A stretch of DNA of 64,000 nt from Acidimicrobiia bacterium (GTDB lineage: Bacteria; Actinomycetota; Acidimicrobiia; IMCC26256; PALSA-610). The DNA lies in NCBI GenBank assembly GCA_052148155.1, contig JBKQIY010000144.1, positions 547 through 64,546 on the forward strand, in the 5' to 3' direction. The notes beneath the pieces were generated by a model, which saw nothing but the letters and a program-made list of their open reading frames with translations, made no database searches and was not told where the DNA came from. Position numbers and translations under genes: made by a program. Positions within the stretch are counted from its first letter, which is position 1. Each line of letters begins with the position of its first letter. Shown here piece by piece: positions 4,059-17,022 of the stretch.

Positions 4059-5274
4059 CGTCAACGCGAACGGAATTCCGTACCGCTTTGCGTGTCCCTC
4101 CGGCTCGCCGACGCGCCGATGTGGCCGGCATGTCACGGCAGACTGCGACGTATGGTCCGGTATCGGTCGGCAACGATCGCGGACCGGTTCTGGGAACCGA
4201 CGAGAACGTTCGCGCTGTCGTGGAGGTGTTGCGCGGCTGCGCGGTGGCCTTCACGGTTCCGATACGGGAGGGGCATCATCGGCCGCTCAATGCGCCGTGA
4301 GATCAGGCGACGTTCGACGCGGCTCGGCTGTCAGTCGCGGAAATTGCTCCCGGATGGTGGTCCTGTGCGAGTGTGCAAGGCGCACCGTCAGGATCCCCAG
4401 TTCGGCAATCGCACGGCCGCCGGAGCGGTCGAGGCCTCGGGTCTCGCGGATCCGTGAGCGTGGTTCGGACACTCCGTGCGAACAGACGCCGCGGTTCGGA
4501 CTGCGGCCTATGTCGAGGCATATGGGCGTTCTGAACTCTGATCGGGTTGTCGCCGACACCACCCACCCAAACGAGGGGACGAAGACGCCGGCTCACCTCT
4601 GCATGGTGTCGACCGGCGACGACCCCGATCGAGTTGGAGCGGTGTACTCATACGAATACGGCGGCTGGGTCGAATGAGTGTCCCGGGCGCCCAGGCTGCC
4701 GCGGGCAGGTGGGAGTGCATCACGGACCGTCGCGCGCGTCGCGCGCGGCATCGAACCCAGCTGCTCGGCCTCGGCGGGTGTCGACGCGATCAACCGCCTG
4801 CGACGGTGCGTCAGCCGTGGCCTCGCCGGTGACGTCTCAGGCTGATCTTGTGAAGTGGGCCCGGAAGCTGACAACGAGGGAACCACACCTACAGCTCAAT
4901 CGAGCATCGCCAAGGCGGCCGGCTCACACCCTCGAGGCCGGCTCTTCGGTCGGTCATGTTTCCGGAACCGCATCCGATTCTACGGCGACGGGGGCTCGCG
5001 GGGAAGCGGCATATCGCACCATCTGGGCGACGGCGCGCGGCGACGGAAGCGTCGACGTCATGTGAGACGAGGACCGAATCAGGGCGGCCGCTGCCGGGAA
5101 AGCTGGTCGACGTGAACTGGCAGCGAGGAAGATTGGGAGCGCCGACGTCGGAACGGAGCAACCCGACGGGATCGGCGTTTTCGGTGGTTCATACAGCCGC
5201 GTCGCGCTGTGCGGTCCGCTCTTCGAACGGACCCGATGCCGGCCGCCGTCCAGACGCTGACCGGGTCCGGCCTG

Positions 5275-5856
5275 TCACGTCAGGTTCCGGCTGGCGACGT
5301 AGCGTTCGAATGCGTCGTTGACGCCGTCTGTGTCTCCGGTCGCGAGGAGATCGAGGAGCAGTCCCCGGATGACCGCGACACCAAGGCGCGCCTCGGTACG
5401 GGCGACGTCCTCGGCCACGCCGTTGTCGATGAGGGCGCCGGCCACGGCGTCGATCCAGGAGTCGACGATGTCATCGAGGAGAGAAAGCGCGTAGGGACGG
5501 CCCTGCAACGCGAGGCTGTAAACCTCGAAGAACAGTCGCTCGTGAGGAGCGAGCAAAGGGTCGCTGAGCTGACGCCAGAACCGCCGGGCGACGTCGCCGA
5601 CTGAATCGGCAGACTCGACGAGTTGGGACAGCACGAGTCGTTGGCGGTGTTCCATGCTCCGCACGACCTCGACGAGGAGCGCTTGTTTCGATCCAAAGTG
5701 GTAGATGAGCATTCGGTGGCTCGTGCCCGCCGCGGCGGCAAGTTCGCGTAGCGACAGATCGCTCATCCCGCGTTCGCTGACGTAGTCGATCGTCCGTTCG
5801 AGCAATTGTTGTCTGGGGTTGGTGACGTCGCTGAGCGTCGACTCTGCTATTGCCAT
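5275..5856 (-). CDS. TetR family transcriptional regulator
   Basis: ORF 5275..6300 trimmed to ATG at 5856 (MAIAESTLSDV...). TetR HTH: MSDLSLRELAAAAGTSHRMLIYHFGSKQALL. Start codon abuts the inverted repeat at 5857. Confidence 0.85.
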   Translation of the reverse strand: MAIAESTLSDVTNPRQQLLERTIDYVSERGMSDLSLRELAAAAGTSHRMLIYHFGSKQALLVEVVRSMEHRQRLVLSQLVESADSVGDVARRFWRQLSDPLLAPHERLFFEVYSLALQGRPYALSLLDDIVDSWIDAVAGALIDNGVAEDVARTEARLGVAVIRGLLLDLLATGDTDGVNDAFERYVASRNLT

Positions 5857-5902
5857 GTTCCGTATGGTACATGAAACGTATGGTTCATGTACCATACGGA
5901 AC
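5857..5902. promoter_or_regulatory. perfect 19-bp inverted repeat (8-bp spacer), candidate TetR operator in the divergent promoter region
   Basis: GTTCCGTATGGTACATGAA (5857-5875) / acgtatgg / TTCATGTACCATACGGAAC (5884-5902). It lies between the TetR start (5856, minus) and the SRPBCC gene start (5933, plus). Confidence 0.65.
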
Positions 5903-5932
5903 AGATGAGTAGCTGCTCGCGGGGAAGCCAGT

Positions 5933-6370
5933 GTGGAGCATGACATCACCGTCGAGATAGACGCCGGGCTTGACGCAGTCTGGACGGTGCTAACCGACGT
6001 CGAACGTTGGCCCGAGTGGACCCGCTCGACGCAGAACATCGTCGTTCTCGGCGACGGGAGGGAGTTGCAGGTCGGCACCAGGGCGCGGGTGAAGCAACCC
6101 CGTCTTCCCGCAGTGGTGTGGGAGGTCACCGTCTTCGAACCTTCGCAGACGTTCGTCTCGCAAACCAGGGCCGGCGGGGTCGCCTCCGTCGCCGCACATC
6201 GCCTCAAGGTTGGTGACCGGGGAACCGTGGTCGTGGATCTTGCGATTCGCCAGTCCGGTCCCTTGGCGCCGCTGGCCGCGCGTCCCATGTCGCGGCTCAC
6301 GCGTCGCTATCTGCGTATGGAAGCCGACGGCCTCAAGCTTCGCAGCGAAACTGGAGACAGTTGCTCCTGA
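5933..6370 (+). CDS. SRPBCC (polyketide cyclase/dehydrase, START-like) family protein
   Basis: ITVEIDAGLDAVWTVLTDVERWPEWT is the typical SRPBCC N-terminal pattern. Divergent from the TetR gene. Confidence 0.75.
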   Translation: MEHDITVEIDAGLDAVWTVLTDVERWPEWTRSTQNIVVLGDGRELQVGTRARVKQPRLPAVVWEVTVFEPSQTFVSQTRAGGVASVAAHRLKVGDRGTVVVDLAIRQSGPLAPLAARPMSRLTRRYLRMEADGLKLRSETGDSCS

Positions 6371-6497
6371 TGTGGTGGCGTGTCGTTGATGAGACCACAG
6401 CGGCCGCCGGGAATCGTCCCCCGCCAGTCGACGTCGTCGGGCCCGAACGCCGTTTAGGATCGGACGTTGTGTCAATGGGCGACTCGTCTGGTGATGG

Positions 6498-8102
6498 ATG
6501 GCCTGGAACATCGCAGATCTCACGGAGCACGTCGTCGATTCAGTGCCCAATCGCGTCGCCTTGATCGTCCGGGACGAGCCGCGTACGTTCATCGAGCTTG
6601 AGCGACGCGCGAACCGGTTGGCTCACCACCTTGCCGCGCAGGGGATCGGGGTGGGCGATCACGTCGGGATCTATGGACTGAACAGTCACGCGTTCGTCGA
6701 AACGATCTTCGCGGCCTACAAATTGCGCGCGGTGCCGGTGAACGTGAACTACCGCTACGTCGAAGGCGAGCTGCGGTATCTTTTCGACAACGCCGATCTT
6801 GTCGCGCTCGTACATGACGCGCAGTTCGCGCCGCGCATCCGAGCGGTACGCGATTCGCTGCCGATGTTGCGCCACCTGATCGTGAACGACGACGGCTCGA
6901 ACGAAGACGCCTCGACGATCGGATCTGTTCTCTACGAGGACGCACTTGCGAGTCGAGCGCCAGAGCGTGACTTCGCTGGTAGATCCGGCGACGATATCTA
7001 CATGCTGTACACCGGCGGCACGACCGGCATGCCGAAGGGTGTCGTGTGGCGTCAAGAGGACGTGTTGTGCGTTCTCGGTGGTCTTGTCAACTTCGACACC
7101 GGCGTGCGCGTCGAAGACGAGTGGGAGTTCGCGAACGCCGCTGCCAGGGCGTCTGACGATGTTGGCCTCGGCGTTGTGATCGCGCCGCTGATGCACGGTG
7201 CCGCGCAGTGGGGGACCATCAACGGATTGATCAACGGCCGCACGACGGTATTGATGGCCAGGTTTGATCCGCACGAGGTGTGGAAGGCGATCGAGAAGTA
7301 CCGCATTGCGACGCTCGGCCTTACCGGCGACGCGATGGGTCGGCCGCTCATCGAAGCACTCGATGATGGAGAGTACGACGCGTCCTCGCTCGTCGCGATC
7401 GCTTCGACAGCCGCGATTTTCAGCCCAACGGTGAAAGAACAGTTCCGCGAACGCTTCCCGAACCTGGTCATCGCCGACGCCGTCGGTTCCACCGAGACCG
7501 GCTACAACGGCGTGCAGGTGAGCACGAAGGGCGGAAGCGAGAAGCTCGGCCTTCCGACGGTGCGGATGGGTCCGGACACCGTGGTGCTCGACGACGACAT
7601 GAACGTCGTACAGCCAGGTTCGGGGGTGGTCGGACGCATGGCACGCGGTGGCAACGTGCCGTTGCGATACCACAAGGATCCCGACAAATCAGCGGCAACG
7701 TTTGTGACCGTCGACGGCCGACGCTACGCGATTTCCGGAGACTCGGCGATCGTGGAGGCCGACGGAACGATGACGTTGCTCGGCCGCGGTTCTGAATGCA
7801 TCAACTCTGGCGGCGAGAAGATCTACCCCGAAGAGGTGGAGGCCGCGCTGAAAGCTCACCCGGCCGTGTTCGACGCAGTCGTTGTCGGCGTGCCCGACGA
7901 ACGTTGGGGCGAACGTGTGGCCGCGGTGATCGAGGTGCGGCCCGGTCACGTCGTATCGCTCGAGGACCTTGCCACGCATGCCCGAAACCATGTCGCGGGC
8001 TACAAGGTGCCACGCGAGCTGCACGTTGTCGTTAAAATTGAACGTTCGCCGAGCGGCAAACCGGATTACCCGTGGGCCAAGAACGTCGCGACCGGCGCCT
8101 AA
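6498..8102 (+). CDS. acyl-CoA synthetase / AMP-dependent ligase (FadD-like)
   Basis: AMP-binding motif [17 protein letters not shown]..., GGEKIYPEEVE, C-terminal GYKVPRE...SPSGKPDY. Paralog of 39037..40656. Confidence 0.9.
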   Translation: MAWNIADLTEHVVDSVPNRVALIVRDEPRTFIELERRANRLAHHLAAQGIGVGDHVGIYGLNSHAFVETIFAAYKLRAVPVNVNYRYVEGELRYLFDNADLVALVHDAQFAPRIRAVRDSLPMLRHLIVNDDGSNEDASTIGSVLYEDALASRAPERDFAGRSGDDIYMLYTGGTTGMPKGVVWRQEDVLCVLGGLVNFDTGVRVEDEWEFANAAARASDDVGLGVVIAPLMHGAAQWGTINGLINGRTTVLMARFDPHEVWKAIEKYRIATLGLTGDAMGRPLIEALDDGEYDASSLVAIASTAAIFSPTVKEQFRERFPNLVIADAVGSTETGYNGVQVSTKGGSEKLGLPTVRMGPDTVVLDDDMNVVQPGSGVVGRMARGGNVPLRYHKDPDKSAATFVTVDGRRYAISGDSAIVEADGTMTLLGRGSECINSGGEKIYPEEVEAALKAHPAVFDAVVVGVPDERWGERVAAVIEVRPGHVVSLEDLATHARNHVAGYKVPRELHVVVKIERSPSGKPDYPWAKNVATGA

Positions 8103-8261
8103 AGACATCTGAAATTAAGACCGGCGTTCGTCGAGGACCTGGCTGCACCGTCCACCTTGACACGTCCCCCTCGACCCGGCGCACGATGTCGGTTCTATGT
8201 CGTCCACGAGCTGACCGGCCAACGTCGGGCGGGTTCGCCCTGTCCACCATAAGCTTGTGCG

Positions 8262-8438
8262 GTGCCGACGCCTGTCGGTCCGCTAGGACCCGAAGAGATC
8301 GACCCGAATGATCCCGACCACTGGGACTGGGACGCGCAAGCGCCGCTATCAGTCGCACGGCCACCATGGATCCGCTTCACGGCGTTGGCGATCGCCGTGA
8401 TCCTCGTCCTGTTTGTGATCGCGGAATTCTCTCGGTGA
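8262..8438 (+). CDS. possible small membrane protein (58 aa, below ORF-track cutoff)
   Basis: Own translation from GTG 8262: VPTPVGPLGPEEIDPNDPDHWDWDAQAPLSVARPPWIRFTALAIAVILVLFVIAEFSR*. It has an acidic N-terminus and one C-terminal hydrophobic helix. Third-position GC is only moderate and no RBS was identified. Confidence 0.3.
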   Translation: MPTPVGPLGPEEIDPNDPDHWDWDAQAPLSVARPPWIRFTALAIAVILVLFVIAEFSR

Positions 8439-8531
8439 GCATCGACTCGTACGTCTGACGTCGTCCAGCACTTCTTGTTGGCGACACCGGCGCAAGCCCA
8501 TCGTCGGCCGTACTGGCCGGGTCGTGGAACC

Positions 8532-8549
8532 GCCGGTTTCGAAACCGGC
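8532..8549. repeat. 18-bp perfect palindrome GCCGGTTTCGAAACCGGC in a non-coding-looking stretch
   Basis: Read directly; it is its own reverse complement. Function unknown (protein-binding site or hairpin). Confidence 0.5.
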
Positions 8550-8932
8550 TGGACCAACATTTCGATGTCGAGCCGACGCGTTCGAGGGCCAGCGGCCGAC
8601 GCGTTCGGGGGAGATGTGGATGAAGACTCGAGGCCCGCTGATGGCTTCGGCGCGGCCTGCGATCTCGATCGCTCACGGGTGAGAACCGTCCCCGGCCGCG
8701 ATGCCGTCGATCACGATCGTGGCGCGCCGGCGTGTGTTACGTCTTGGACCGTGAGGTATCAACCGGGCCAGGGTATGAACGTGAGCTGACTGACCACGCC
8801 GCGCGCACAGGTCGTTCGGTCCTCGCGCGGTCCTGCTAGTAGGCATGGCGGTTTGCGGCCAACGCCTCGAACGTGATGACTTGACCCGTCGACGAATGTC
8901 TCCGTGACGGACCGACGAGCGAGAAGGTAGCC

Positions 8933-9535
8933 ATGGGCAACGTCGTAGTCGCACTCTCGATGTCGCTGGACGGGTTCATCGCCGGACCTCACGACGGTCC
9001 CGCCAATCCGCTCGGTGACGGCGGAGCGAGGCTCTTCGACTGGTGGTCAGCCGGCACCGAGCGCGTCGGTGCCGACGACCGCTTCAAGCCGCCGGCGCGC
9101 AGTCGCGCGATCGTGAAAGAAATGTTCGACTGCGGCGCGATCATCACTGGTCGGCGTACCTTCGACATCGCCAACGGCTGGGGCGGGCACCATCCCGTCG
9201 GCGTCCCGTTCTTCTTACTCACCCACGACGCGCCCAGCCGGTACGTGGGAGTAGGTACCGGCGGAACGGTCGTCACCGACGGCATCGAGAGCGCACTTGA
9301 CCAGGCACGCGCGGTGGCCGATGGGCGCGACATTGCCGTCTGTGCTGCTGATGTAGCCCAGCAGTACCTCAAAGCCGGCCTGCTCGACGAAGTCCACGTG
9401 AGTCTTGTTCCCGTGCTGCTCGGCAGCGGTGTGCGGCTCTTCGCGAATATCGAAGACCGCCAGTTCTGCCTCGAATGCACCCGAGTGGTCGAATCCGACG
9501 GCGTCACCCACCTCCGCTACCACGTCGCGAAATAG
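8933..9535 (+). CDS. dihydrofolate reductase family protein (RibD C-terminal domain type)
   Basis: MGNVVVALSMSLDGFIAGP...LFDWW...TGRRTFD...PVFLLTH pattern typical of RibD_C/YwjB-like reductases. Confidence 0.8.
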   Translation: MGNVVVALSMSLDGFIAGPHDGPANPLGDGGARLFDWWSAGTERVGADDRFKPPARSRAIVKEMFDCGAIITGRRTFDIANGWGGHHPVGVPFFLLTHDAPSRYVGVGTGGTVVTDGIESALDQARAVADGRDIAVCAADVAQQYLKAGLLDEVHVSLVPVLLGSGVRLFANIEDRQFCLECTRVVESDGVTHLRYHVAK

Positions 9536-9804
9536 CCAGCGCGAGAGGCGGGACATGGGCAGTTCGTGTGGATTGCGAAGCGTGAAGCTGCGGCTGCGGC
9601 TTGCCACGGCTTGGGCGGTTTCGGTTTCGGGCACGCGCACGCGTCGTGAACCCCGGGCCGGCAATCGATCGACATGTGTTGATGCCAACACGCCTCGGCC
9701 GCCGAAGCCGTGGCAACTTGTCGTCTCGGTAAACAAAGCGTGAAGGACAGGAGATCGGGCGGACTATCGTGCGCGAGCGGTGTACCGCGTGCGAGGCTCA
9801 TGTG

Positions 9805-10161
9805 ATGGCAGAGATCCACATTTTCGCGCGGGCCCGAGACAAGATGGCGGTCCAGGCGGGCGAGGTCGTCTTCAGCCAAGGCGACGCCGGCGACGCGATG
9901 TACGCCGTACTCGACGGAGCCGTTGACATTTCGTTGGGCGGTGTCGCGGTGGAGACGGTCGGCCCGAGCGGAATATTTGGGGAACTTGCACTCGTGGACG
10001 CGAGCCCTCGCAGCGCGACCGCGATCGCGCGTGTCGAGTCGCAGCTCGCTCGGGTGGATCGAAGAGAGTTCATGTTCTTGGTGCAGGAGCATCCGACTTT
10101 CGCACTTCAAGTGATGCAGGTGCTCGCGGAACGTATTCGGCACGCGAACGAATCCCACTAG
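9805..10161 (+). CDS. stand-alone cyclic nucleotide-binding (CNB) domain protein
   Basis: ORF 9769..10161; ATG 9805 preferred (MAEIHIF...). Phosphate-binding cassette FGELALVDASPRSATAIA. At about 118 aa there is no room for an output domain. Confidence 0.8.
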   Translation: MAEIHIFARARDKMAVQAGEVVFSQGDAGDAMYAVLDGAVDISLGGVAVETVGPSGIFGELALVDASPRSATAIARVESQLARVDRREFMFLVQEHPTFALQVMQVLAERIRHANESH

Positions 10162-10443
10162 CTCTCCGGGCCGTGTTGCCGGTCCGGCGTTTTCGGCGTC
10201 GTACGGGTCGGTTGTTGGCTCGGCGAGGAGATCGCGGGTCTTGAGCCGTCGTGGGCCAAGCCGGCACTGTCGGGCGCCCAAGACGGAACGTTGAACACAG
10301 CAAGGCAACGCCCATGTGCGTGACTGCACCGGCATGCTCGCGCGGCCGGTCGTCGCGGTTGGTCTCCCGGCTCGCCGTAGCAGCGCTGACGTAAGATCGG
10401 ATGGTTGCTGGCTGACCGGACACCCAACTCGAAGGAGGCTTGG

Positions 10444-12285
10444 TTGTCGTCGGTCGTCGACGCGGAGCGTCGCGGTGAGCTTTTGCTCGCCTTCGACCTC
10501 GTGGAACGCGCGCTGGTCGAATTCCCGGGCGATGTCGAACTCCAATTCCGGGCCGTCCTCGCACTCGCGCGGTCCGGCTCGACGGGAGAGGCGGCTCGCA
10601 GGTTCGACGAGTATGAGCTCGGGATCGTCAAAGATGAAGACACGCAGGCGCTGTCGGCGCGACTGAAAAAGGATGCTGCCCTCGTCGCCGATGGTGACGA
10701 AGGACAGCGACTCGCTCTGCAAGCTGCCCTCGAGTATCGGATGATCTATGAGCAGACCGGCGGCTATTTCCCTGCGGTGAATGCGGCGACGTTAAGTTTC
10801 CTTGCCGGCGATCGCGACGGGGGAGTTGCGTTGGCTGGCGATGCGCTCCGAGCCGTCGTCGCTTCGCACGACGATTCTTACTACGCGTTGGCGACTGAAG
10901 CCGAAGCGCACCTGCTTCGGGGCGAGGTCGAAAGCGCACGGAGTGCGCTCGAGCGTGCGGCCCGTGCGAACAAGGGTGACTACGGCGCGCTCGCGACGAC
11001 GCGCCGCCAGTTACGCATGATCTGCCAGACCGCCGGAATCGATACGGAGGTCCTTGCGGCTGTGGCTGGACCAGCAGTCGTTCATTTCTGCGGTCACCGG
11101 ATCGATGTCGATGACCGTGGACCGTTCCGGTCGACGGACGAACGCCATGTTGGTGGCCTGATCGTGGACGTGGTCGCGAGACACAACGTCGGGTTCGCCT
11201 ATGGGTCGCTGGCGAGTGGCGGAGACATCTTGTGGGCCGAGGCGCTTCTCGCCCGCGGCGTCGAACTCCATATCGTCTTGCCGTTTGCGCTCGAAGAGTT
11301 CGTCGAGTGCTCGGTCGCCCCTTCCGGACACTCGTGGGTCGAACGGTTTTCGCAATGCCTCGATCGGGCTGCGTCGGTGACCTACGGCACCAGTGACGCC
11401 TTCCTCGGCGATGACGTCCTGTACCGATACTGCTCCGAAATTGCGATGGGACTCACCCTGGTGCGTGCACGCTGGCTCGACGCCGAGGTGCACCAATTCG
11501 CGTTGTGGGACGGTAAGCCGGCCCGCGGCGAGGCCGGTACCGCAATCGACGTCGCTCTGTGGCAGAGCACCGGTCATCCGGTCACGATCGTCCGACCTCC
11601 CACTGTCGACGGCCCGCCGATCATCACGGACTCGGGCCAGCGGTCAGTACCGGGCCCGACCGTCGCGCGTCACGACCGGGCCGTGGAGGCAGGTTCGGGG
11701 CGCGTCATCCGGGCGATGTTGTTCGCCGACGTACGCGGGTTCTCGAAACTCACTGACGAGCAACTTCCGACGTTTGCACAATATGTGTTCGGGTCTTTCG
11801 CCGAGGTGCTCGACCGATACCGCACCGTTGTGGAGTACAGCAACACGTGGGGGGATGCGCTCTACGCGGTCATCACCGATGCTGTGTCGGCGGCCGCGTG
11901 TGCGCTCGACCTCCAACACGCCATCGAGCATTTGGCTCCCGAGACGGTTGGGCTCCCGGCCGATCTCGCGCTCCGTCTTGGCGGACACGTCGGTCCGATC
12001 TTCCCTGTCGCCGATCTCATCCTCAAACGGCGATCGTTCGTCGGCTCGCACGTGAACCGCACGGCGCGTATCGAGCCCGTCACACCGCCGGGTGCCGTCT
12101 ACGTCACATCACCGTTCGCGGCTGCGCTCGAACTCACCGACGGACACCCATTCGCCTGCGACTACGTCGGACATCGGCCCGCCGCGAAAGATTACGGGTC
12201 GCTGCGCATGTATCGACTCCGACTGGCGAATACGACTCCGGCCGACTTGTCGGGCGGAGGGCGCGCGGGCACGCCCGTCTCGTAG
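10444..12285 (+). CDS. multidomain class III adenylate/guanylate cyclase (N-terminal helical repeats + SLOG-like Rossmann domain + cyclase)
   Basis: ORF 10405..12285; TTG 10444 preferred because GAAGGAGG lies 5-6 nt upstream. C-terminal cyclase motifs: MLFADVRGFSKL, NTWGDALYAV, GSHVNRTARIE. Middle region: VVHFCGHRI...GFAYGSLASGGDILWAEALLARGVELHIVLPF. Confidence 0.85.
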   Translation: MSSVVDAERRGELLLAFDLVERALVEFPGDVELQFRAVLALARSGSTGEAARRFDEYELGIVKDEDTQALSARLKKDAALVADGDEGQRLALQAALEYRMIYEQTGGYFPAVNAATLSFLAGDRDGGVALAGDALRAVVASHDDSYYALATEAEAHLLRGEVESARSALERAARANKGDYGALATTRRQLRMICQTAGIDTEVLAAVAGPAVVHFCGHRIDVDDRGPFRSTDERHVGGLIVDVVARHNVGFAYGSLASGGDILWAEALLARGVELHIVLPFALEEFVECSVAPSGHSWVERFSQCLDRAASVTYGTSDAFLGDDVLYRYCSEIAMGLTLVRARWLDAEVHQFALWDGKPARGEAGTAIDVALWQSTGHPVTIVRPPTVDGPPIITDSGQRSVPGPTVARHDRAVEAGSGRVIRAMLFADVRGFSKLTDEQLPTFAQYVFGSFAEVLDRYRTVVEYSNTWGDALYAVITDAVSAAACALDLQHAIEHLAPETVGLPADLALRLGGHVGPIFPVADLILKRRSFVGSHVNRTARIEPVTPPGAVYVTSPFAAALELTDGHPFACDYVGHRPAAKDYGSLRMYRLRLANTTPADLSGGGRAGTPVS

Positions 12286-12326: not shown

Positions 12327-15300
12327 CTAGCTTTTCGAGGTGGTCGTCGCGTCGGGAACCGCGGAGGACAATCTCGCCGGAACGTCGGTTGGACGGGCCG
12401 CGATGCCGGCCGAGCCGTACAGAGTCTTACGGTTCGGCCGTCGGCACCGTGGACGGTGAGGCGTCTCGCCCATCGCAGGACAGCCCGACGGGCTCTCGTT
12501 CACCGGCCCCGAAGATGGGAGCTCGGCACGGACCGGCAATGGTTTCGCGGTCCGCACCACAGATGGCCGCGCGATCGGCGGGGACGCGTTGATGTTCCAT
12601 GTGGCGGTGGTCTGAGCCGGCGAACACGCGGGTGCGTAGGTCTCGCCGGGAAAGTATGTCTGCCACTCGTCTGGGGTCAGCGCCCGCGGGGCGGCGGCAC
12701 AGAGCTGGCTGAGCAGCGTGGCGGGTGACGCACCCCACGAGTCGGTGAAGAAACGCGAACCGTGGAAATCGATGGCGACCGCGGCGATTTCACCGTCAGC
12801 GGGCATCCCCACAGATATCTGCCCTTCGACCTGGCCGACAGCCGGCGTGACGTCTCGCGCGATTCCCAGCGGCTGCAAGAATCGGCCCAACTCGTCGCCG
12901 GTCACCACGACATCGGTGCCGTCACCGCGGACGTCGTTGTAGAAGTTCAGGCCTACCGTCGCGACCTCCCCGTTGTCTGAAATCGCCAGCGCGGTCGGAT
13001 CGAACGTGGACGATGAGGTCAGCACGACATCCGATGCCACGTCTTGCGTGTTCGACGTTGACCCGAGATTCCAGATCGCGACGGTCCCGCCGGCATTGAA
13101 GGCGAGAAGCTGGCCGTTCGGGCTGAACCGGAGGGCATAACCGTCGTTTCCGAAGCTGCCGCTGCCGAGGGCAACGACCCCGGCGCTCATGCTCAGCGTG
13201 TGGAGTATCGCTCCGCTGCGCGCATCCAACAGCACGCCGCCGACTTCGCCGGAAGAACCCTGCGTTGCCACAAGCGCGACGACGTCGGTGCCGGGTTGAA
13301 AGGCCGGTACGGACACGGTCTGCTCGCCCAGCCCGACCGACTGGTTGTCGATCACCTGGAGTGGTTGACCGGTCGCGACGGAATAGGTCACCAGCGCGCA
13401 GCTGTGCGGTCCGGACGTCCCGTGCGCGTTGTCGTCGAAGGTCACGGCGACGACGTCGGTGGCGTCACTCAATGACACACCGACGGGGATGTCGTCGGGT
13501 ATGCGAGCCAGGGGGGTCGCGCCCAACTGCGTGCTGTCGACGATGGTGCCGGTCGCCGCGTCGAGGATCAGCACGCGGCACGGGCATCCGCCGGTGTGTC
13601 CGATGATCGCGACCGCGTCTGTCCCGCTGGGATCAAAGCTGACCGCGTTGATCGCTTCGTCGGGTCCGAGGGGCACGGATAGGCGACGTTCGGTGTGAGC
13701 GGCTCCGTCGATCATGGCGAGGGAGTGTGCACTCCAGGCGAGCGCGGTCTGGCCGGTCGGTGCCTCGACGACGGTCGTCCCCGCGGGCACAGCACCGTTG
13801 CTGGGCACGATGGCGGACGAGGTACTGGCCGGTGACTGCAGGTCGATGATCTGCAATGCCGTCAGGCTCGACGCGACCAGGCTGGTTCCGTTCGGACTGA
13901 TCGACAGATTGCAGAAGTACGACGCGCATAACTCGAGCGGTACGACACCCTGCGTCGTCCATTTCGCCGCGGTGAGGTTCCACACCTGGTAGGTCGGGAC
14001 CGACCCGATCGAGTTGAGCAGCACGACCGCGCGGCCGTCCGGGGTCGAGGTCACGAGCGTGTTGAGGTTGCCGCCACCAAGCGCGGCCGGAATAGGCCGC
14101 GTCAGTTCGAACTGTGCACGGGGCGCCGAGGCCCCGGCAACCACTTGCAGTTCGACGTGCCGTTCGTTGTTATACACCCACACGGTCGGGCCGGTGGGCG
14201 CGAACTCCACCGCGGGCGGGTCGGCGGTCTCGTCTGGCGAGATCCGCGGCGGGTTGACCCAGCTGCTCAACTCCGGTGTCGCGAAACTGCCGATCTTGTA
14301 GGCGGCGCCGGCCTTGCCGGTCGCGACGTCGATCGGGACCAACGCGTAGTCGTCGCCTCCGGTGTAGACGAGCGCAGTGGCGAGTGAGCCGTCCTCGTTG
14401 ATCGCGACACCGACCGGCTGGTGGGGGAGTGCGATTCGGCGCGGGGGTGATTGACCGGTTGATATGTCCACCGCCTTCGCGCCGTTCGGGGCGAGCCACG
14501 CGAGCACGTCGCCGTTTCCCGACAGCGCAGGGCGCCGTCCGGTCAGACCGTTGCCGCTGTCCGGTTCTTGAGAGGCGACCGACCATGCCGAGACGGTGCC
14601 GTCGCCGCTCGCGGCGTTCGACGTCAGCGCCAAGACGTTGCCGTCGCCCGAGAGGGCGCTTTCGGAAGTCAGGCCGGTGCTACTCGTCGCGTTCGCCGCC
14701 AGTGAGCCGTCGGCGTTCCACACCTGCACGACGTCGGGCCGGCTCGATTGTGCCGATGAATACGTCGCGAAGCGCTGGCTGTCCGATGACCATGACACGG
14801 GATACGGCTGCGCCGACAGGAGATCTGACGTCGATCCGGCGAGCTGGCCGGTCACGAAGCGGCCGCCGGCATTCGCGAGTGCGTCCAGTGCACTGTTCGC
14901 AACTGAACCGTCGATCTGGATATCAGGCTGTTCGCAGCCGCTGTCTGGATACGAGGCGGTGTTCGAGGTCGAGTTCGGGTTGATCGCGCTGCTCGCACAT
15001 GCGTGGCGTACGGCCTCCGCCGCGAGGAGGACGCCCAGCTGGTAGGTCTGGTCACCCGAGCTCATCAGTTGTTCGCTGCGACGGGCAGCAAGTCTCGCCT
15101 CGGCGAGGAGGGTCGATTGCTGCAGCGCGAGGCTGCCCTTGACCAAGTTCGAGTTCGCGGTGTCGAGATTCGCGTTGGTGATGGAGAGTTCTTGCGCGCG
15201 GCTCTCGGCCAGGGTGCGCTGCTGGGAGGCTTCGATGGCACTGAGCTCGGCTTCATGCTGGCGGGCGAAAGCCAAACCACGCTGCTGGTCTGCCTCCATG

Positions 15301-16091
15301 CGCTGCTGGTCCGCCACAAGGCTGGCCCTGGTCGCCTTTCCGCGCGCGACAATCGCCTTTTCGCTCGCGATGAGTGCGAGCCCCTTTTGGACATCGGCGA
15401 GGTGCTGTTCGGTTCGCGCCCGTGCCGCGCTGCGTCGAGCGGCTCCTGCCGCGTTGACCGCGAAGACGGACGTCGCGATCGATGCCAGGGTGAGAACCAC
15501 GAGCGCGACGCCCGCCGCGACCGCCTGCCGTAACGCTCGCCGATGCTGACGTACGTCTTCGCCAGTGAGTTCGTCCTTGGCCATCCCATGCGCGGGCGCG
15601 GCGAGGTCGGCGATGTGATCTCGGAACCGGCCGTCGGTCAGGTCGAGCTGGACTTCTGCACGTGCCCAGCGCATATCGACATGAAACGGCTCTTCCTGAA
15701 AACAGCCCGCGAACGCCGACCCCAGCGCGGTTGTGGCTTTCCAGTCGAAGTCGTTCGCGCTTTCGTCCCAGCGGATCTCGCCGTCAGTCAACAACACCAA
15801 GAGTCCGTCCGAGCCGTGCTTGGCCCGCCAGTGTTCGACCTCGCGTCCACACCACACCGACGCCGCCGCGTCGGGCGAGGCAAGGAACAGGAAGTACCGT
15901 GAGCTATCGATCGCGTCGGCGATGGAAGACCACAACCCCGGATTGGCCGACAGGGCTGTCCGGTCCCGGAACACGTCCAGTGCCCGGCGCCGGTACCACG
16001 GCTTGGCGAACTTCGACAGTCCGTCTTGCACGCGCTCCGATAACAGATCGTCGCCGCCATGGCTGTACGAAATGAAGACGTCGTAGCTCAT
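12327..16091 (-). CDS. TIR domain protein with one TM helix, coiled coil and large beta-propeller-like region
   Basis: ORF 12327..16106; ATG 16091 preferred (GGGAGG 5 nt upstream). N-terminus SYDVFISYSH...FLFLASPDAAASVWCGREVEHW (TIR). Hydrophobic AVAAGVALVVLTLASIATSVFAV. Q-rich heptad region. Repeated blade-like units (LSGDGNVLAL, LSGNGDVLAW, INEDGSLATA, STPDGRAVVL, ISPNGTSLVA, FSPNGQLLAF, ISDNGEVATV). Near-C-terminal LTPDEWQTYFPGETYAPAC. Confidence 0.85.
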   Translation of the reverse strand: MSYDVFISYSHGGDDLLSERVQDGLSKFAKPWYRRRALDVFRDRTALSANPGLWSSIADAIDSSRYFLFLASPDAAASVWCGREVEHWRAKHGSDGLLVLLTDGEIRWDESANDFDWKATTALGSAFAGCFQEEPFHVDMRWARAEVQLDLTDGRFRDHIADLAAPAHGMAKDELTGEDVRQHRRALRQAVAAGVALVVLTLASIATSVFAVNAAGAARRSAARARTEQHLADVQKGLALIASEKAIVARGKATRASLVADQQRMEADQQRGLAFARQHEAELSAIEASQQRTLAESRAQELSITNANLDTANSNLVKGSLALQQSTLLAEARLAARRSEQLMSSGDQTYQLGVLLAAEAVRHACASSAINPNSTSNTASYPDSGCEQPDIQIDGSVANSALDALANAGGRFVTGQLAGSTSDLLSAQPYPVSWSSDSQRFATYSSAQSSRPDVVQVWNADGSLAANATSSTGLTSESALSGDGNVLALTSNAASGDGTVSAWSVASQEPDSGNGLTGRRPALSGNGDVLAWLAPNGAKAVDISTGQSPPRRIALPHQPVGVAINEDGSLATALVYTGGDDYALVPIDVATGKAGAAYKIGSFATPELSSWVNPPRISPDETADPPAVEFAPTGPTVWVYNNERHVELQVVAGASAPRAQFELTRPIPAALGGGNLNTLVTSTPDGRAVVLLNSIGSVPTYQVWNLTAAKWTTQGVVPLELCASYFCNLSISPNGTSLVASSLTALQIIDLQSPASTSSAIVPSNGAVPAGTTVVEAPTGQTALAWSAHSLAMIDGAAHTERRLSVPLGPDEAINAVSFDPSGTDAVAIIGHTGGCPCRVLILDAATGTIVDSTQLGATPLARIPDDIPVGVSLSDATDVVAVTFDDNAHGTSGPHSCALVTYSVATGQPLQVIDNQSVGLGEQTVSVPAFQPGTDVVALVATQGSSGEVGGVLLDARSGAILHTLSMSAGVVALGSGSFGNDGYALRFSPNGQLLAFNAGGTVAIWNLGSTSNTQDVASDVVLTSSSTFDPTALAISDNGEVATVGLNFYNDVRGDGTDVVVTGDELGRFLQPLGIARDVTPAVGQVEGQISVGMPADGEIAAVAIDFHGSRFFTDSWGASPATLLSQLCAAAPRALTPDEWQTYFPGETYAPACSPAQTTATWNINASPPIARPSVVRTAKPLPVRAELPSSGPVNESPSGCPAMGETPHRPRCRRPNRKTLYGSAGIAARPTDVPARLSSAVPDATTTSKS

Positions 16092-16560
16092 GCTGGCCTC
16101 CCGCAATGCGGCCCACGGCCGCTTCCCGCATCGCTAGATCATGCCCGAACGCCCGGTCGGGTCGCGTTCGTGCCGCGGCAGTGCCGCCAGGTTCGATGTC
16201 CGTTCGGGGTCGGCTCGCGCGACACGTCGCGATCGTTTCGAGCGGGGAATCGCCTTCCCGGCGGCGAGCCGGACCCGTTTGTGTCGCGAACTCGACATTC
16301 GACACGCACGGCCGTTATGAGCCGATCTCTGGTCGTCGCCGGAAGCGTCGAGACCGCAAGAGCATGTTCGGTGTCGGCGGGACGAGCTGGGTCAGGAACG
16401 CTCGCCCGACGCGACTTCGGGATGTCACCCGAGTCCGAACCCGAGACGCTCCGGTGCGAGAAACGGTCCGTCGACCAGCAGGTCGGACGCGCGGGCTGCT
16501 CCGGTGCCGGTCAGGGGCCGGGGTGGCGCCCCGGGCCGGTGACGAACAAGACTCATCCTC

Positions 16561-17022
16561 ATGTACAACGTGATAGTGGTCGGGACGGACGGCTCGGAGA
16601 CGGCGGGCGTCGCGGTCCATCAGGCGACAGCGCTCGCAGCCCTCACCGGAGCGACACTCCACATCGTCAACGCCTACCGGACGATGTCGATCAGCAGCGT
16701 GGCGGTCGCCGCGACTGCTGGAGGAATGTCGAACATCGACGTCGAGGCACTGAATAAGAGTGTCGGCACCGAAAGCGCACAGGTGTGCGAGCATGCCGCC
16801 AGCGAGGCGCGCCAACTGGGTGTCTCGGTTGAGCTGCATGCGGTCCCCGTCGAGACCGCGGATGCGCTGGTCCGGGTCGCCGAAGATGTCGGCGCCGATC
16901 TGGTCGTTGTGGGCAACCGGGGAATGAGCGGCAAGAAACGCTTCGTGCTTGGCAGCGTCCCGAACAAGGTGTCGCACCACTGCCCGTGCAGCTTGCTCAT
17001 CGTTGACACGACGGCCGAGTGA
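16561..17022 (+). CDS. universal stress protein (UspA family)
   Basis: IVVGTDGSETA...LHIVNAY...DLVVVGNRGMSG...LGSVPNKVSHHCPCSLLIV. Confidence 0.9.
   Translation: MYNVIVVGTDGSETAGVAVHQATALAALTGATLHIVNAYRTMSISSVAVAATAGGMSNIDVEALNKSVGTESAQVCEHAASEARQLGVSVELHAVPVETADALVRVAEDVGADLVVVGNRGMSGKKRFVLGSVPNKVSHHCPCSLLIVDTTAE

What the first reader, a model, noticed from the sequence alone, without database searches (positions are those of the whole stretch)
12327..16091. Single-pass membrane TIR protein with a ~1000-aa predicted extracytoplasmic coiled coil and beta-propeller region (Toll-like-receptor-style topology)
Seen in sequence: the N-terminal ~140 aa have TIR hallmarks. These are the DVFISYSH beta-A strand and FLFLASPDAAASVWCGREVEHW, an S-x-W-C-x-x-E stretch whose Glu sits where the catalytic Glu of NAD-cleaving TIR domains is expected. 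About 200 residues in there is one 23-residue hydrophobic helix (AVAAGVALVVLTLASIATSVFAV) and no N-terminal signal peptide. That should leave the TIR domain cytoplasmic and everything after the helix outside. The outside part starts with a Gln-rich heptad region (ADQQRMEADQQRGLAFARQHEAELSAIEASQQR...). At least nine blade-like units follow (S/D-x-D/N-G-x-h-h-A), and near its C-terminus it carries LTPDEWQTYFPGETYAPAC, followed by a ~110-aa low-complexity tail. I recall that motif from the C-termini of actinobacterial WD40-repeat proteins. Established knowledge: bacterial TIR proteins act in anti-phage systems (Thoeris ThsB, TIR-STING, TIR-SAVED, TIR-APAZ) and are normally cytosolic. A TIR wired to a very large extracellular sensor is not an architecture I know as characterised.
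Basis: partly seen in the sequence, partly recalled or inferred. Interest (0 to 1): 0.8.

Follow-up and report, generated by a model that had tools for sequence, protein, structure and literature searches.

The report
Membrane-anchored TIR receptor with a signalling partner
This gene encodes a bacterial protein with an immune-type TIR enzyme domain inside the cell, one membrane helix and probably a large double beta-propeller outside; it belongs to a large undescribed family that sits next to a nucleotide-sensor/cyclase gene, which suggests outside-to-inside alarm signalling.

Summary
It has a TIR_2 domain above Pfam's threshold. Its W80-x-x-x-E84 motif is invariant in the family and aligns with the catalytic Glu of plant TIRs. 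One 23-residue hydrophobic helix is conserved in 118/120 relatives. A long helical stalk follows, then a diverged tandem WD40-type propeller and a two-Cys C-terminal cap.

It is not a one-off. The TIR-helix module occurs in at least 463 loci of species-representative genomes, mostly Actinomycetota. The helix-WD40-cap module also follows STAND NTPases, other TIR families and a BTAD regulator.

New here: about a third of family loci carry an adjacent gene with an uncharacterised, SLOG/deoxyribosyltransferase-like domain. In this window it lies inside a convergent TPR-S/cyclase gene, beside a cNMP-binding gene.

Best reading: a Thoeris-like system whose TIR component is a transmembrane sensor that feeds a cyclic-nucleotide relay. 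Architecture and linkage are shown. Outside location, enzymology and any defence role are inferred. I found no published description.

The parts
12327..16091 (-). Gene for the 1254-aa TIR / membrane helix / helical stalk / tandem beta-propeller / Cys-cap protein (stop codon 12327-12329)
   Evidence: ORF and translation. Identical to a protein named 'MAG: TIR domain-containing protein [Acidimicrobiia bacterium]'. dN/dS below 1 throughout against the L001 orthologue.
16097..16102 (-). Shine-Dalgarno-like GGGAGG, 5 nt upstream of the ATG at 16091
   Evidence: Read directly from the sequence.
15582..16091 (-). TIR domain, aa 1-170 (betaA 3-8 to alphaE 154-168)
   Evidence: Pfam TIR_2 at 33.1 bits, above the cut-off of 28. 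AlphaFold2 model pLDDT 87. Top Foldseek PDB hits are all TIR domains. All profile hits in the PDB are TIR domains, but with marginal E-values.
15840..15842 (-). Codon of Glu84, the putative catalytic Glu of the W80-x-x-x-E84 motif at the start of alphaC
   Evidence: Aligns with the Glu of WC(L)xEL in RPP1, L6 and AtTIR. W80 and E84 are invariant in 118/119 family members.
15456..15524 (-). Single hydrophobic helix, aa 190-212 (putative transmembrane signal-anchor), preceded by the conserved R181-x-H-R-R-x-x-R188 cluster
   Evidence: Kyte-Doolittle mean 2.29. Present in 118/120 homologues. Lies within the continuous model helix 172-250. K+R is higher on the N-side flank in 69 sequences, equal in 41 and lower in 9.
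14994..15455 (-). Helical stalk, aa 213-366 (helices to 250, 259-344 and 349-366, the last with the family-conserved LLAAEA-type motif)
   Evidence: AlphaFold2 secondary structure. L356 is nearly invariant in the family. The heptad test is not significant. This is the most relaxed segment, dN/dS 0.47.
12735..14774 (-). Diverged tandem WD40-type beta-propeller region, aa 440-1119 (about 55 strands, about 14 blades)
   Evidence: AlphaFold2 model is all-beta with pLDDT 65.6. Best Foldseek hit is the double propeller 2ymu, E=7.6e-24, followed by Utp and Apaf-1 double propellers. Pfam sequence hits are sub-threshold only. Only 19 homologues of this region were found.
12624..12725 (-). C-terminal cap, aa 1123-1156: C1131 ... 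R-x-L-T-x-x-E-W-x-x-Y-x-P ... C1156
   Evidence: The family consensus is AC..A.R.LT..EW..Y.P...Y...C. Both Cys are invariant in 34/34 aligned caps. dN/dS is 0.04. The same cap ends many WD40 proteins that carry other N-terminal domains.
12330..12623 (-). Poorly conserved Pro/Arg-rich tail, aa 1157-1254
   Evidence: Column identity among orthologues is 0.2-0.4. dN/dS is 0.44.
10405..12285 (+). Convergent partner gene (ORF of 626 codons, start codon not settled). Domains: TPR-S (10489-10797), TPR, the uncharacterised 'A4' domain (11053-11613) and a class III nucleotide cyclase (11713-12144). Its stop lies 41 bp from the TIR gene's stop.
   Evidence: Pfam TPR-S E=6e-9 and Guanylate_cyc E=8.7e-8. 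The A4 HMM scores E=1.9e-79. The same gene lies next to family TIR genes in five other distinct loci from several lineages (L004, L008, L017, L058, L078) and, within the window's own orthologue clade, in L001, L086, L087 and at P0010. Both metal-binding Asp motifs are conserved.
9769..10161 (+). Small stand-alone cNMP-binding protein (130-codon ORF), a possible receiver of the cyclase product
   Evidence: Pfam cNMP_binding E=1.9e-19. cNMP-binding genes lie within a few kb in all 7 orthologue loci inspected.

Best explanation
The gene encodes a type II single-pass membrane protein. An enzymatically competent TIR domain sits on the cytoplasmic face, about 20 residues from the membrane. Beyond the membrane helix come a helical stalk, a tandem WD40-type beta-propeller and a Cys-capped C-terminus, most likely outside the cytoplasmic membrane.

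It belongs to a large, mainly actinobacterial family. In that family a very conserved TIR-plus-helix signalling module is joined to variable propeller sensors.

Proposed mechanism:
1. An extracytoplasmic cue binds the propellers. Candidates are a phage or epibiont at the envelope, envelope damage, or a foreign or kin surface molecule.
2. Binding clusters or re-orients the stalks.
3. The TIR domains come together into the composite active site that TIR NAD+ chemistry needs.
4. The TIR domains make an ADP-ribose-derived signal.
5. The genetically linked partner reads that signal through its TPR-S and/or SLOG/deoxyribosyltransferase-like 'A4' domain.
6. In this window the partner's fused class III cyclase then makes a cyclic mononucleotide.
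7. Neighbouring cNMP-binding proteins receive it. Here that is a stand-alone cNMP-binding protein; in a distant relative's locus it is cNMP-binding-patatin.

Shown: the domain anatomy, the conserved Glu, the conserved hydrophobic helix, the family size and the gene linkage.
Inferred: the outside location of the propellers, TIR catalysis and its product, the TIR-to-partner-to-cNMP relay, and a conflict or defence role.
For: TIR domain:
- Pfam TIR_2 is above its cut-off.
- The model is confident and its top PDB matches are TIR folds.
- The WxxxE Glu aligns with the plant catalytic Glu and is invariant in 118/119 relatives.

Membrane helix:
- It is present in 118/120 relatives.
- It follows a conserved RxHRRxxR cluster.
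- The N-side flank is the more basic in 69 sequences and the less basic in 9.

Outside location:
- Eight Cys are invariant in 12 orthologues, in four local pairs, all after the helix.
- The cap Cys pair is invariant across the family.
- Of 149 representative proteins that end in the last-WD40-blade-plus-cap profile, 133 have a hydrophobic segment before the first WD40 repeat.
- Their N-terminal domains need the cytoplasm: nSTAND1 and AAA NTPases, other TIR families, and a BTAD DNA-binding regulator.
- A surface WD40 propeller sensor has been reported in Actinobacteria, EsrA (PMC13622651).

Propellers.

Gene linkage:
- 28 of 86 family loci have an A4-domain gene within 3.5 kb. In 20 it is a stand-alone gene of about 157 aa; in 8 it is inside TPR-S-A4-cyclase.
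- Its orientation varies: convergent, divergent or co-directional. Hosts include Acidimicrobiia, Actinoplanes, and Alphaproteobacteria and Burkholderiales MAGs.
- 5 of the 7 loci inspected in the window's clade (the window plus six orthologues) keep the convergent pair although the wider gene context differs.
- Two A4 proteins picked from the other side both sit next to TIR-WD40 genes.

Partner identity:
- Sources name a few A4 proteins nucleoside 2-deoxyribosyltransferase, DprA-like or DUF1273, all SLOG/DrHyd-type names.
- The SLOG domain of ThsA senses TIR-made 3'cADPR.
- The type VIII Thoeris effector is 'TPR + CMP hydrolase' and is activated by TIR-made cADPR (preprint 10.64898/2025.12.03.692087).
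- TIR, DrHyd and SLOG are treated as one class of nucleotide-binding or nucleotide-processing domains (PMC9503650).
- The cyclase keeps both metal-binding Asp motifs.
Against: - Topology was not tested with a dedicated predictor or by experiment.
- The C-side flank of the helix is also basic, with a mean of 3.5 K+R in 15 residues.
- In classical STAND proteins the repeats contact the NTPase in cis. The same helix in nSTAND1-WD40 proteins is therefore hard to reconcile with a membrane between the two.
- The window's pair is convergent, not an operon.
- 49 of 86 family loci show no recognisable partner within 10 kb.
- The A4 domain matches no Pfam, NCBIfam, PADLOC or PDB sequence significantly. 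The best is Nuc_deoxyrib_tr, E=0.02, in 2 of 12 members.
- The window's surroundings are Usp, a response regulator, TrkA, a P-type ATPase and RibD_C. That is not a defence island.
- No copy was found in phages.
- The propellers are under purifying selection (dN/dS 0.25) rather than obvious diversifying selection, from one pair only.
- PADLOC's ThsB hit is weak, E=5.8e-4.
Confidence: 0.5

Rival explanations
1. A self-contained suicide or growth-arrest switch. The membrane TIR protein senses an envelope cue and simply depletes NAD+, as TIR-only abortive-infection effectors or SARM1 do. The neighbouring cyclase and cNMP genes are then an independent module that happens to travel nearby.
For: The invariant catalytic-type Glu fits a NADase. 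49 of 86 family loci have no recognisable partner within 10 kb. The window's two genes are convergent, so they are not co-transcribed.
Against: An A4-domain gene, from a rare family, lies next to a third of family loci, in several orientations and in several phyla. The reverse look-ups agree. The partner carries TPR-S and a SLOG-like domain, which are the domain types that read TIR products in Thoeris systems.
Confidence: 0.2
2. The hydrophobic helix does not put the propellers outside. The protein would be a membrane-tethered or peripheral but wholly cytoplasmic TIR-WD40 sensor, that is, an ordinary cytosolic-type pattern sensor held at the membrane.
For: Both flanks of the helix are basic. 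Canonical WD40 repeats and STAND NTPases usually work in the cytoplasm, and the same helix sits between nSTAND1 and WD40. No topology predictor was run.
Against: A 23-residue uncharged apolar helix conserved in 118/120 relatives can only cross the membrane once. A folded 190-aa N-terminal TIR without a signal peptide should stay inside. Paired invariant Cys are found only after the helix. A surface WD40 sensor has a precedent.
Confidence: 0.15
3. A physiological receptor rather than an immune one. The propellers sense an environmental or cell-envelope ligand. The TIR acts mainly as an oligomerising scaffold, or as a housekeeping ADPR-signal source, that regulates cNMP signalling in Acidimicrobiia.
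For: The window's neighbourhood is housekeeping-like: Usp, response regulator, TrkA, P-type ATPase. In orthologue loci the cNMP-binding domains are fused to glutaminase-STAS, MFS and ABC-type proteins. The ectodomain is conserved at 55-75% identity within the clade and is under purifying selection. No mobile-element genes lie nearby.
Against: Relatives show features typical of conflict systems: several paralogues per Actinoplanes genome and tandem duplicates, copies on plasmids flanked by transposases, sensor regions unrelated in sequence on a constant signalling module, patatin as a cNMP-binding output, and STAND-type sister architectures.
Confidence: 0.15

Closest known systems
Thoeris systems, especially type VIII (ThsB TIR plus the ThsI 'TPR + CMP hydrolase' effector, canonical cADPR signal) and type I (ThsB plus ThsA SIR2-SLOG); preprint 10.64898/2025.12.03.692087
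   Same: A TIR gene with the catalytic-type Glu lies next to a gene that combines a TPR-type sensor scaffold (Pfam TPR-S here) with a SLOG/deoxyribosyltransferase-like domain. These are the domain types that read TIR-made ADPR derivatives.
   Different: - The TIR protein is 1254 aa, membrane-anchored, and carries its own large propeller sensor. It is not a small cytosolic ThsB.
- The partner's output is a class III cyclase with cNMP-binding proteins downstream, which would be a second-messenger relay rather than a direct killing effector.
- The pair is convergent in this window.
- Neither WD40 nor a cyclase appears among the effectors in the parts of that survey's tables that are held; the two large tables were cut when stored.
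- Homology of A4 to the 'CMP hydrolase' domain was not established.
Toll-like receptors and IL-1 receptors of animals
   Same: The logic matches: a repeat-built ectodomain, one membrane helix, and a cytoplasmic TIR close to the membrane. Activation by ectodomain-driven TIR association is the natural model.
   Different: - The orientation is inverted: type II, with the TIR at the N-terminus.
- The ectodomain is a WD40-type propeller, not LRR or Ig.
- The TIR keeps the catalytic-type Glu, so it is probably enzymatic rather than an adaptor-recruiting scaffold.
- There is no sign of common descent of the whole architecture. This is an analogy, not membership.
Pycsar and Pucsar (class III-type cyclase plus cNMP-activated TIR or TM effectors); preprint 10.64898/2026.08.12.744502
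   Same: A class III-type nucleotide cyclase, cNMP-binding proteins and a TIR protein are encoded together.
   Different: - Here the TIR protein has no cNMP-binding domain, so it would act upstream of the cyclase, not downstream.
- The cyclase is a long TPR-S-A4-cyclase fusion.
- The base-specifying position before the second metal Asp is Asn (N-[TS]-W-G-D). The product is unknown.
EsrA-type surface beta-propeller threat sensors of Actinobacteria (PMC13622651) and PknD-type kinase-TM-propeller receptors (the latter from my own knowledge)
   Same: A beta-propeller displayed outside a monoderm actinobacterial cell acts as the sensing end of a signalling pathway.
   Different: EsrA is secreted through a signal peptide and signals through MoxR/vWA and a kinase. 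Here the propeller is fused through one helix to a TIR domain.
STAND/NLR-like bacterial conflict proteins with WD40 sensors (nSTAND1-WD40; Kaur et al. 2020, PMC7159879)
   Same: The linker, WD40 repeats and C-terminal Cys cap are shared, and even the hydrophobic helix before the repeats is the same. Actinoplanes genomes carry several paralogues.
   Different: This protein has no NTPase domain. The TIR takes the place of the STAND module.

Membership tests
TIR domain (Pfam TIR_2, PF13676) | Profile HMM match above the curated threshold | tested here: met
   33.1 bits against a cut-off of 28, E=8.9e-8, aa 5-103.
TIR domain (Pfam TIR_2, PF13676) | Flavodoxin-like TIR fold | tested here: met
   AlphaFold2 pLDDT 87. 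The top 49 Foldseek PDB hits are TIR domains, with L6 at E=2e-4 and probability 1.00.
NAD+-cleaving TIR enzymes | Catalytic Glu at the start of alphaC (WxxxE / SxWCxxE) | tested here: met
   E84 aligns with the Glu of WC(L)xEL in RPP1, L6 and AtTIR. W80 and E84 are invariant in 118/119 relatives. The PDB sequence E-values are marginal (0.003-0.03).
NAD+-cleaving TIR enzymes | NADase or ADPR-cyclase activity | not testable with these tools
   Needs biochemistry.
Single-pass (type II) membrane protein | One hydrophobic helix of about 20 residues, no signal peptide, N-terminus inside | tested here: inconclusive
   Helix: Kyte-Doolittle mean 2.29, conserved in 118/120. Orientation rests on a modest K+R bias, post-helix Cys pairs and the cytoplasm-requiring N-terminal domains of sister architectures. 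No DeepTMHMM or Phobius run, and no experiment.
WD40 beta-propeller | Sequence match to WD40 repeat models | tested here: not met
   PF00400 scores 14.4 bits against a cut-off of 27. Other propeller families are sub-threshold too.
WD40 beta-propeller | Tandem propeller fold of 4-stranded blades | tested here: met
   The model is all-beta with about 55 strands, at moderate confidence (pLDDT 65.6). Best match is 2ymu at E=7.6e-24, with many double WD40 propellers after it. Relatives with the same N-terminal module carry canonical WD40.
Thoeris (TIR signalling defence) | TIR gene adjacent to a gene with a domain that binds TIR products (SLOG, Macro, TPR) | tested here: inconclusive
   The adjacent gene has TPR-S and an A4 domain that a few sources name SLOG/NDT-like. 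A4 has no significant HMM or PDB sequence match. Linkage is seen in 28/86 loci.
Thoeris (TIR signalling defence) | Genes in one operon | tested here: not met
   The pair is convergent in the window and its clade. It is co-directional and adjacent only in some relatives, L008 and L058.
Thoeris (TIR signalling defence) | Protection against phage through a TIR-made signal | not testable with these tools
   Needs infection assays and LC-MS.
Pycsar / Pucsar | The effector TIR protein carries a cNMP-binding domain | tested here: not met
   The TIR protein has no cNMP_binding hit. cNMP-binding lies on separate neighbouring genes.
Toll-like receptors | N-terminal LRR ectodomain, TM helix, C-terminal TIR (type I) | tested here: not met
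   The TIR is N-terminal, the ectodomain is a propeller, and there are no LRR hits. This is an analogy of topology only.
STAND / NLR-like | Central P-loop NTPase | tested here: not met
   No NTPase domain was found. Sister proteins with the same C-terminal module do have nSTAND1.

The most novel reading that the evidence does not exclude
Bacteria possess a widespread class of true 'outside-in' TIR receptors. In these, an extracytoplasmic propeller senses a surface-level threat or partner, and a single helix transmits this to a catalytic TIR. The TIR's NAD+-derived product is read by a TPR-S/SLOG-like protein that switches on a cyclase. That would be a two-tier second-messenger cascade (ADPR derivative, then cNMP) that no described defence system uses. 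The same helix-WD40-cap module would also make transmembrane receptors out of STAND NTPases and BTAD regulators.
Probability: 0.3. Interest if true: 0.85.

Novelty: new variant of a known kind. Interest (0 to 1): 0.68.

Why it matters
Bacterial TIR systems described so far sense infection from inside the cell. A TIR wired through one helix to a large external sensor would give bacteria the receptor logic of animal Toll-like receptors, arrived at independently and with an enzymatic TIR.

The family is large and experimentally accessible; Actinoplanes and Streptomyces strains carry it. It comes with a candidate signal receiver.

The TPR-S/SLOG-like/cyclase partner also suggests that NAD+-derived and cyclic-mononucleotide signalling can be chained, which would link the Thoeris and Pycsar types of signalling.

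Finally, the hydrophobic helix recurs before WD40-cap modules on STAND NTPases, other TIR families and a BTAD regulator. That points to a general, unstudied class of single-pass WD40 receptors in Actinomycetota.

Tried and rejected
- The + strand reading of the given coordinates is full of stops. The gene is on the - strand.
- NCBIfam gives no family for the TIR protein. PADLOC gives only a weak ThsB hit.
- The look-up of encoding contigs has no record of the exact window protein, so orthologues were used instead.
- A GC3 filter for gene calling was too strict to be useful.
- The idea that all family members travel with a cyclase was rejected. Actinoplanes loci have no cyclase. They turned out to have the stand-alone A4 gene instead.
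- I tried to identify the A4 domain in four ways: a profile against PDB sequences (only chance CheY-like hits, E>1), Pfam, PADLOC and NCBIfam at E up to 10, and hhalign against the TIR profile (probability 0.1). None was conclusive.
- The heptad periodicity test for a coiled coil was not significant.
- No tRNA gene, Rfam family, sigma-70-like promoter or intrinsic terminator was found near the gene.
- No family member was found in the phage collection.
- Burroughs and Aravind 2020 (J Bacteriol), which defined the TPR scaffold predicted to read NAD+-derived signals, is not held. I cannot exclude that this gene pair is mentioned there.
- The C-terminal cap profile also picks up ordinary WD40 blades. 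The library counts therefore overstate the cap family. Only the top 149, whose best-scoring stretch mostly covers the whole profile near the C-terminus, were used.

Full report
**1. What is there.**
The finding's coordinates are correct, but the gene lies on the minus strand. The + strand translation is full of stops. The - strand carries one ORF, 12327..16106. Its ATG is at 16091, GGGAGG lies 5 nt upstream, and the product is 1254 aa. The window has about 66% G+C. The protein is identical to a database entry named 'MAG: TIR domain-containing protein [Acidimicrobiia bacterium]'. Against an 88%-identical orthologue, dN/dS by segment is as follows:

| Segment | dN/dS |
|---|---|
| TIR | 0.08 |
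| Hydrophobic helix | 0.22 |
| Stalk | 0.47 |
| Propellers | 0.25 |
| C-terminal cap | 0.04 |
| Tail | 0.44 |

The whole reading frame, tail included, is therefore a real gene.

**2. The TIR domain.**
Pfam TIR_2 matches aa 5-103 at 33.1 bits, above its cut-off of 28. PADLOC gives only a weak ThsB hit and NCBIfam gives nothing.

An AlphaFold2 model of aa 1-373, built on 59 family sequences, has a mean pLDDT of 87. It shows the TIR strand-helix order from betaA (aa 3-8) to alphaE (aa 154-168). Its best Foldseek matches in the PDB are L6, L7, Roq1 and RPS4 TIR domains, SPARTA TIR-APAZ, EcThsB and TLR1.

In pairwise and profile alignments to RPP1, L6 and AtTIR, the stretch S-V-W-C-G-R-E aligns with S-S-W-C-L-D-E. 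That puts E84 on the catalytic Glu. The sequence E-values are marginal, but all hits are TIR domains. W80 and E84 (a WxxxE motif) are invariant in 118 of 119 aligned family N-termini, and so are BB-loop residues F41-R42-D43, L47, L53 and W54. The domain is therefore a bona fide TIR with the residues expected of a NAD+-processing enzyme. Activity itself is untested.

**3. The hydrophobic helix and topology.**
Residues 190-212 are uncharged and strongly apolar, with a Kyte-Doolittle mean of 2.29 over 19 residues. A comparable single segment lies at the same relative position in 118 of 120 homologues, although its sequence drifts. That pattern is typical of membrane helices.

In the model it is part of one continuous helix, aa 172-250. 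The TIR is thus only about 20 residues from the membrane. A conserved R181-x-H183-R184-R185-x-x-R188 cluster precedes the helix.

Across 119 relatives, the 15 residues on the N-side hold a mean of 4.5 K+R and the 15 on the C-side hold 3.5. The N-side is the richer in 69 sequences, equal in 41 and poorer in 9. This bias is in the expected direction but modest.

Four further observations support 'TIR inside, rest outside'.
- There is no signal peptide, and a folded 190-aa domain precedes the helix.
- Eight Cys are invariant in 12 orthologues. They form four local pairs, all after the helix: 365/386, 722/727, 836/838 and 1131/1156. (The alignment-derived number 365 corresponds to Cys364 by direct count in the printed sequence, an off-by-one I did not resolve.) The cap pair is invariant in 34/34 diverse relatives.
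- A surface-exposed WD40 propeller sensor has been reported in Actinobacteria (PMC13622651).
- The module survey in section 5 points the same way.

No dedicated topology predictor was available. The outside location remains an inference; I put it at roughly 75%.

**4. The region after the helix.**
Residues 213-366 are predicted as long helices (213-250, 259-344, 349-366). My crude heptad test is not significant. I therefore call this a helical stalk, not a demonstrated coiled coil.

An AlphaFold2 model of aa 340-1160, built on only 17 sequences, has pLDDT 65.6. It is all-beta, with about 55 strands from aa 440 to 1119. Its best PDB match is the 14-repeat double WD40 propeller 2ymu (E=7.6e-24), followed by many double propellers such as Utp proteins and Apaf-1.

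By sequence the repeats are so diverged that Pfam's WD40 and PD40 models stay below threshold. A search with this region alone finds only 19 proteins, all close Acidimicrobiia-type orthologues or fragments.

The family consensus is A-C-x-x-A-x-R-x-L-T-x-x-E-W-x-x-Y-x-P-x-x-x-Y-x-x-x-C.

**5. It is a family, and the sensor module is shared.**
The first 190 residues are 50-60% identical to hundreds of proteins that continue with canonical WD40 repeats. Most are in Actinoplanes and relatives, often with several paralogues or tandem copies. Others are in Acidimicrobiia, Microthrixaceae, Solirubrobacteraceae and Mycobacteriaceae, and a few are in Proteobacteria, Acidobacteriota and Desulfobacteraceae MAGs. 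Copies lie on plasmids of Methylorubrum extorquens CM4 (two in tandem), Streptomyces and Mycobacterium. None was found in phages.

I then searched 1.84 billion representative proteins with a profile of the last blade plus cap. Of the top 149 proteins, 133 have a strongly hydrophobic segment before the first WD40 repeat, usually about 100-150 residues upstream; 20 belong to this TIR family and 82 of the others have a Walker A motif.

Pfam scans of 14 pre-helix regions gave nSTAND1 (6), other TIR_2 families (3), AAA_35 (1) and a BTAD transcriptional activator (1). One nSTAND1-helix-WD40-cap protein sits right next to a family TIR gene in L038.

So 'helix-linker-WD40-cap' is an exchangeable module placed behind domains that need the cytoplasm: ATP for the NTPases, NAD+ for the TIRs, DNA for BTAD. 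This supports the N-in orientation. The caveat is that in classical STAND proteins the repeats touch the NTPase in cis, which a membrane between them would forbid.

**6. The conserved partner (not in the original finding).**
A 626-codon ORF at 10405-12285 (+) is convergent with the TIR gene, with stops 41 bp apart. It holds TPR-S (PF20308), TPR repeats and a class III cyclase domain. Next to it lies a 130-codon cNMP-binding gene at 9769-10161.

The same TPR-S...cyclase protein is 38-52% identical over its full length in other loci. It lies immediately beside family TIR genes in several places:
- other Acidimicrobiia (L001, L058, L078, L086, L087, and the P0010 locus)
- a peat Actinomycetota MAG (L004)
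- an Alphaproteobacteria MAG (L008, 27 bp downstream on the same strand)
- a Burkholderiales MAG (L017)

Its orientation varies between these loci. It is accompanied by cNMP-binding proteins, including cNMP-binding-NTE_Ploop-patatin and cNMP-binding-Pyr_redox_2.

Within the window's own clade, counting the window and six orthologues, 5 of the 7 loci keep the convergent pair although the wider gene context differs. All 7 have cNMP-binding genes nearby.

Between the TPR and cyclase parts lies an unannotated domain of about 185 aa, which I call 'A4' (window 11053-11613). Its motifs are G-H-R, S-L-A-x-G-x-D, V-L-P and W-D-G-x-P-x-x-G-x-G-T.

The same domain occurs as a stand-alone gene of about 157 aa, immediately upstream-divergent or downstream of the TIR-WD40 gene, in about 20 Actinoplanes and Micromonosporaceae loci. 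In total, 28 of 86 distinct family loci have an A4 gene within 3.5 kb.

Two A4 proteins chosen from the other direction both sit beside TIR-WD40 genes.

A4 has no significant Pfam, NCBIfam, PADLOC or PDB sequence match. The best is Nuc_deoxyrib_tr, E=0.02, in 2 of 12 members. A few database sources name members 'nucleoside 2-deoxyribosyltransferase', 'DNA recombination-mediator protein A' or 'DUF1273'. All of these are SLOG/DrHyd-type Rossmannoid labels, so the assignment is a lead, not a result.

Other recurrent neighbours are TrkA_N...RyR-domain proteins (L017 in operon, L050, L072) and RyR+PGDYG proteins (L038, L064, L084).

**7. How it most likely works.**
Established knowledge:
- TIR enzymes need self-association to form their active site.
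- In Thoeris systems a TIR protein makes an ADPR-derived signal that is read by a SLOG, Macro or other domain of the neighbouring effector.
- The recently reported type VIII effector is 'TPR + CMP hydrolase' and is activated by TIR-made cADPR. [quoted passage not shown]
- From my own memory, the abstract of Burroughs and Aravind 2020 describes a TPR scaffold predicted to recognise NAD+-derived signals.
- TIR, DrHyd and SLOG are treated as one class of nucleotide-binding or nucleotide-processing domains (PMC9503650).

Putting this together with the anatomy gives the model. The propellers bind an extracytoplasmic cue. The stalk and helix transmit clustering to the membrane-proximal TIR. The TIR makes an ADPR derivative. 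The TPR-S/A4 part of the partner binds it and activates the fused cyclase. That cyclase keeps both metal-binding Asp motifs (F-x-D-x-x-G-F and W-G-D) and the Arg; the transition-state Asn is present here but is Thr in several relatives. The cNMP is then read by neighbouring cNMP-binding proteins. In Actinoplanes the stand-alone A4 protein would be the receiver, or a buffer or processor of the signal.

Only the anatomy, the conservation and the gene linkage are shown. Everything else is inference.

The main alternatives are:
- a self-contained NAD+-depleting switch
- a wholly cytoplasmic, membrane-tethered sensor
- a physiological cNMP-regulating receptor rather than a defence system

The window's surroundings (Usp, response regulator, TrkA, P-type ATPase, RibD_C) are not a defence island, and the propellers are under purifying selection.

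**8. Comparison with what is known, and novelty.**
The protein is a member of the TIR superfamily; sequence, fold and Glu were all tested and met.

It works most like a Thoeris ThsB, but it fails features of Thoeris as described so far. It is not a small cytosolic protein, and it is not in one operon with its partner in this window. The partner's output is a cyclase, which the parts of the Thoeris survey's tables that are held do not list.

It is not a Pycsar or Pucsar effector, because it has no cNMP-binding domain. It is only an analogue of Toll-like receptors, with inverted orientation and a propeller instead of LRR.

Full-text searches for bacterial TIR-TM-WD40 architectures returned nothing relevant. 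The TIR survey, the prokaryotic WD40 survey and the Kaur et al. conflict-system papers do not describe it. One possibly relevant paper could not be read.

I rate it a new variant of a known kind: TIR-based nucleotide signalling, with two unusual twists. One is a transmembrane sensor TIR. The other is a TPR-S/SLOG-like/cyclase receiver that may chain NAD+-derived signalling to cNMP signalling.

**9. Verdict.**
- Observation: confirmed.
- Interest: moderately high. The family is large, unstudied and directly testable, and the partner linkage gives a concrete mechanism to test.
- Limits on confidence: no topology prediction or experiment, the moderate quality of the propeller model, the unresolved identity of the A4 domain, and the fact that more than half of family loci show no recognisable partner.

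Noticed in passing
L038:5714-9940 (-), next to a family TIR gene in a Mycobacteriaceae MAG: A 1408-aa protein built as nSTAND1 NTPase, an RKRSR cluster plus a 22-aa hydrophobic helix, WD40 repeats, and the same Cys...LT..W...C C-terminal cap. The helix-WD40-cap module is therefore not specific to TIR. Of 149 top representatives that end in the last-WD40-blade-plus-cap profile, 133 have such a helix.
   Followed up: partly
window 11053-11613 (+), inside the cyclase ORF; stand-alone genes such as L024:9403-9915 (-): An uncharacterised domain family of about 160-185 aa ('A4'; motifs GHR, SLAxGxD, WDGxPxxGxGT), with more than 1600 database relatives. It has no Pfam, NCBIfam or PADLOC model. It may be SLOG/deoxyribosyltransferase-like.
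   Followed up: partly
L017:8346-10004 (+), L050:13632-15386 (-), L072:1208-3046 (-); L084:13253-15655 (-), L038:3345-5717 (+), L064:7616-9613 (+): Proteins with TrkA_N plus a RyR domain, or with RyR plus PGDYG, recur next to family TIR genes in loci that mostly lack an A4 gene (L017 has both). In L017 the gene overlaps the TIR start by 4 bp. They could be alternative receivers of a TIR product.
   Followed up: partly
P0044 (975 aa, metagenome protein): A relative with sigma-70 regions 2 and 4 fused in front of the TIR domain, and the hydrophobic helix at aa 497-515.
   Followed up: no
L002:5733-7763, L086:11777-13426, L087:11404-13146; the P0010 locus: Large He_PIG/HYR or NIDO (Ig-like, probably extracellular) proteins lie beside the TIR/cyclase pair in several orthologue loci, but not in the window.
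   Followed up: no
L090 (Streptomyces cynarae plasmid) 6586-11530; L089 (Methylorubrum extorquens CM4 pCMU01) 4878-10844: Plasmid-borne family members. In Streptomyces the gene has a NUDIX hydrolase and two small hypothetical genes around it and is flanked by transposases. In Methylorubrum there are two tandem TIR-WD40 genes.
   Followed up: partly
window 16561-17022 (+): A universal stress protein gene lies divergent from the TIR gene, both here and in the 88% orthologue locus. Further upstream are a response regulator, two TrkA genes and a P-type ATPase. Linkage was not tested beyond these two loci.
   Followed up: no
L001:13807-15429 and L091:6481-8278: In some long-read metagenome assemblies the cyclase gene and the TIR-WD40 gene are split or shortened by apparent frameshifts. 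In L091 the cyclase gene is called as three pieces of 185, 221 and 171 aa, and the TIR (233 aa) is called apart from the WD40 part (692 aa). Protein lengths from those sources should be used with care.
   Followed up: no
window 1-64000: The whole window has no tRNA gene and no Rfam family at gathering score.
   Followed up: yes
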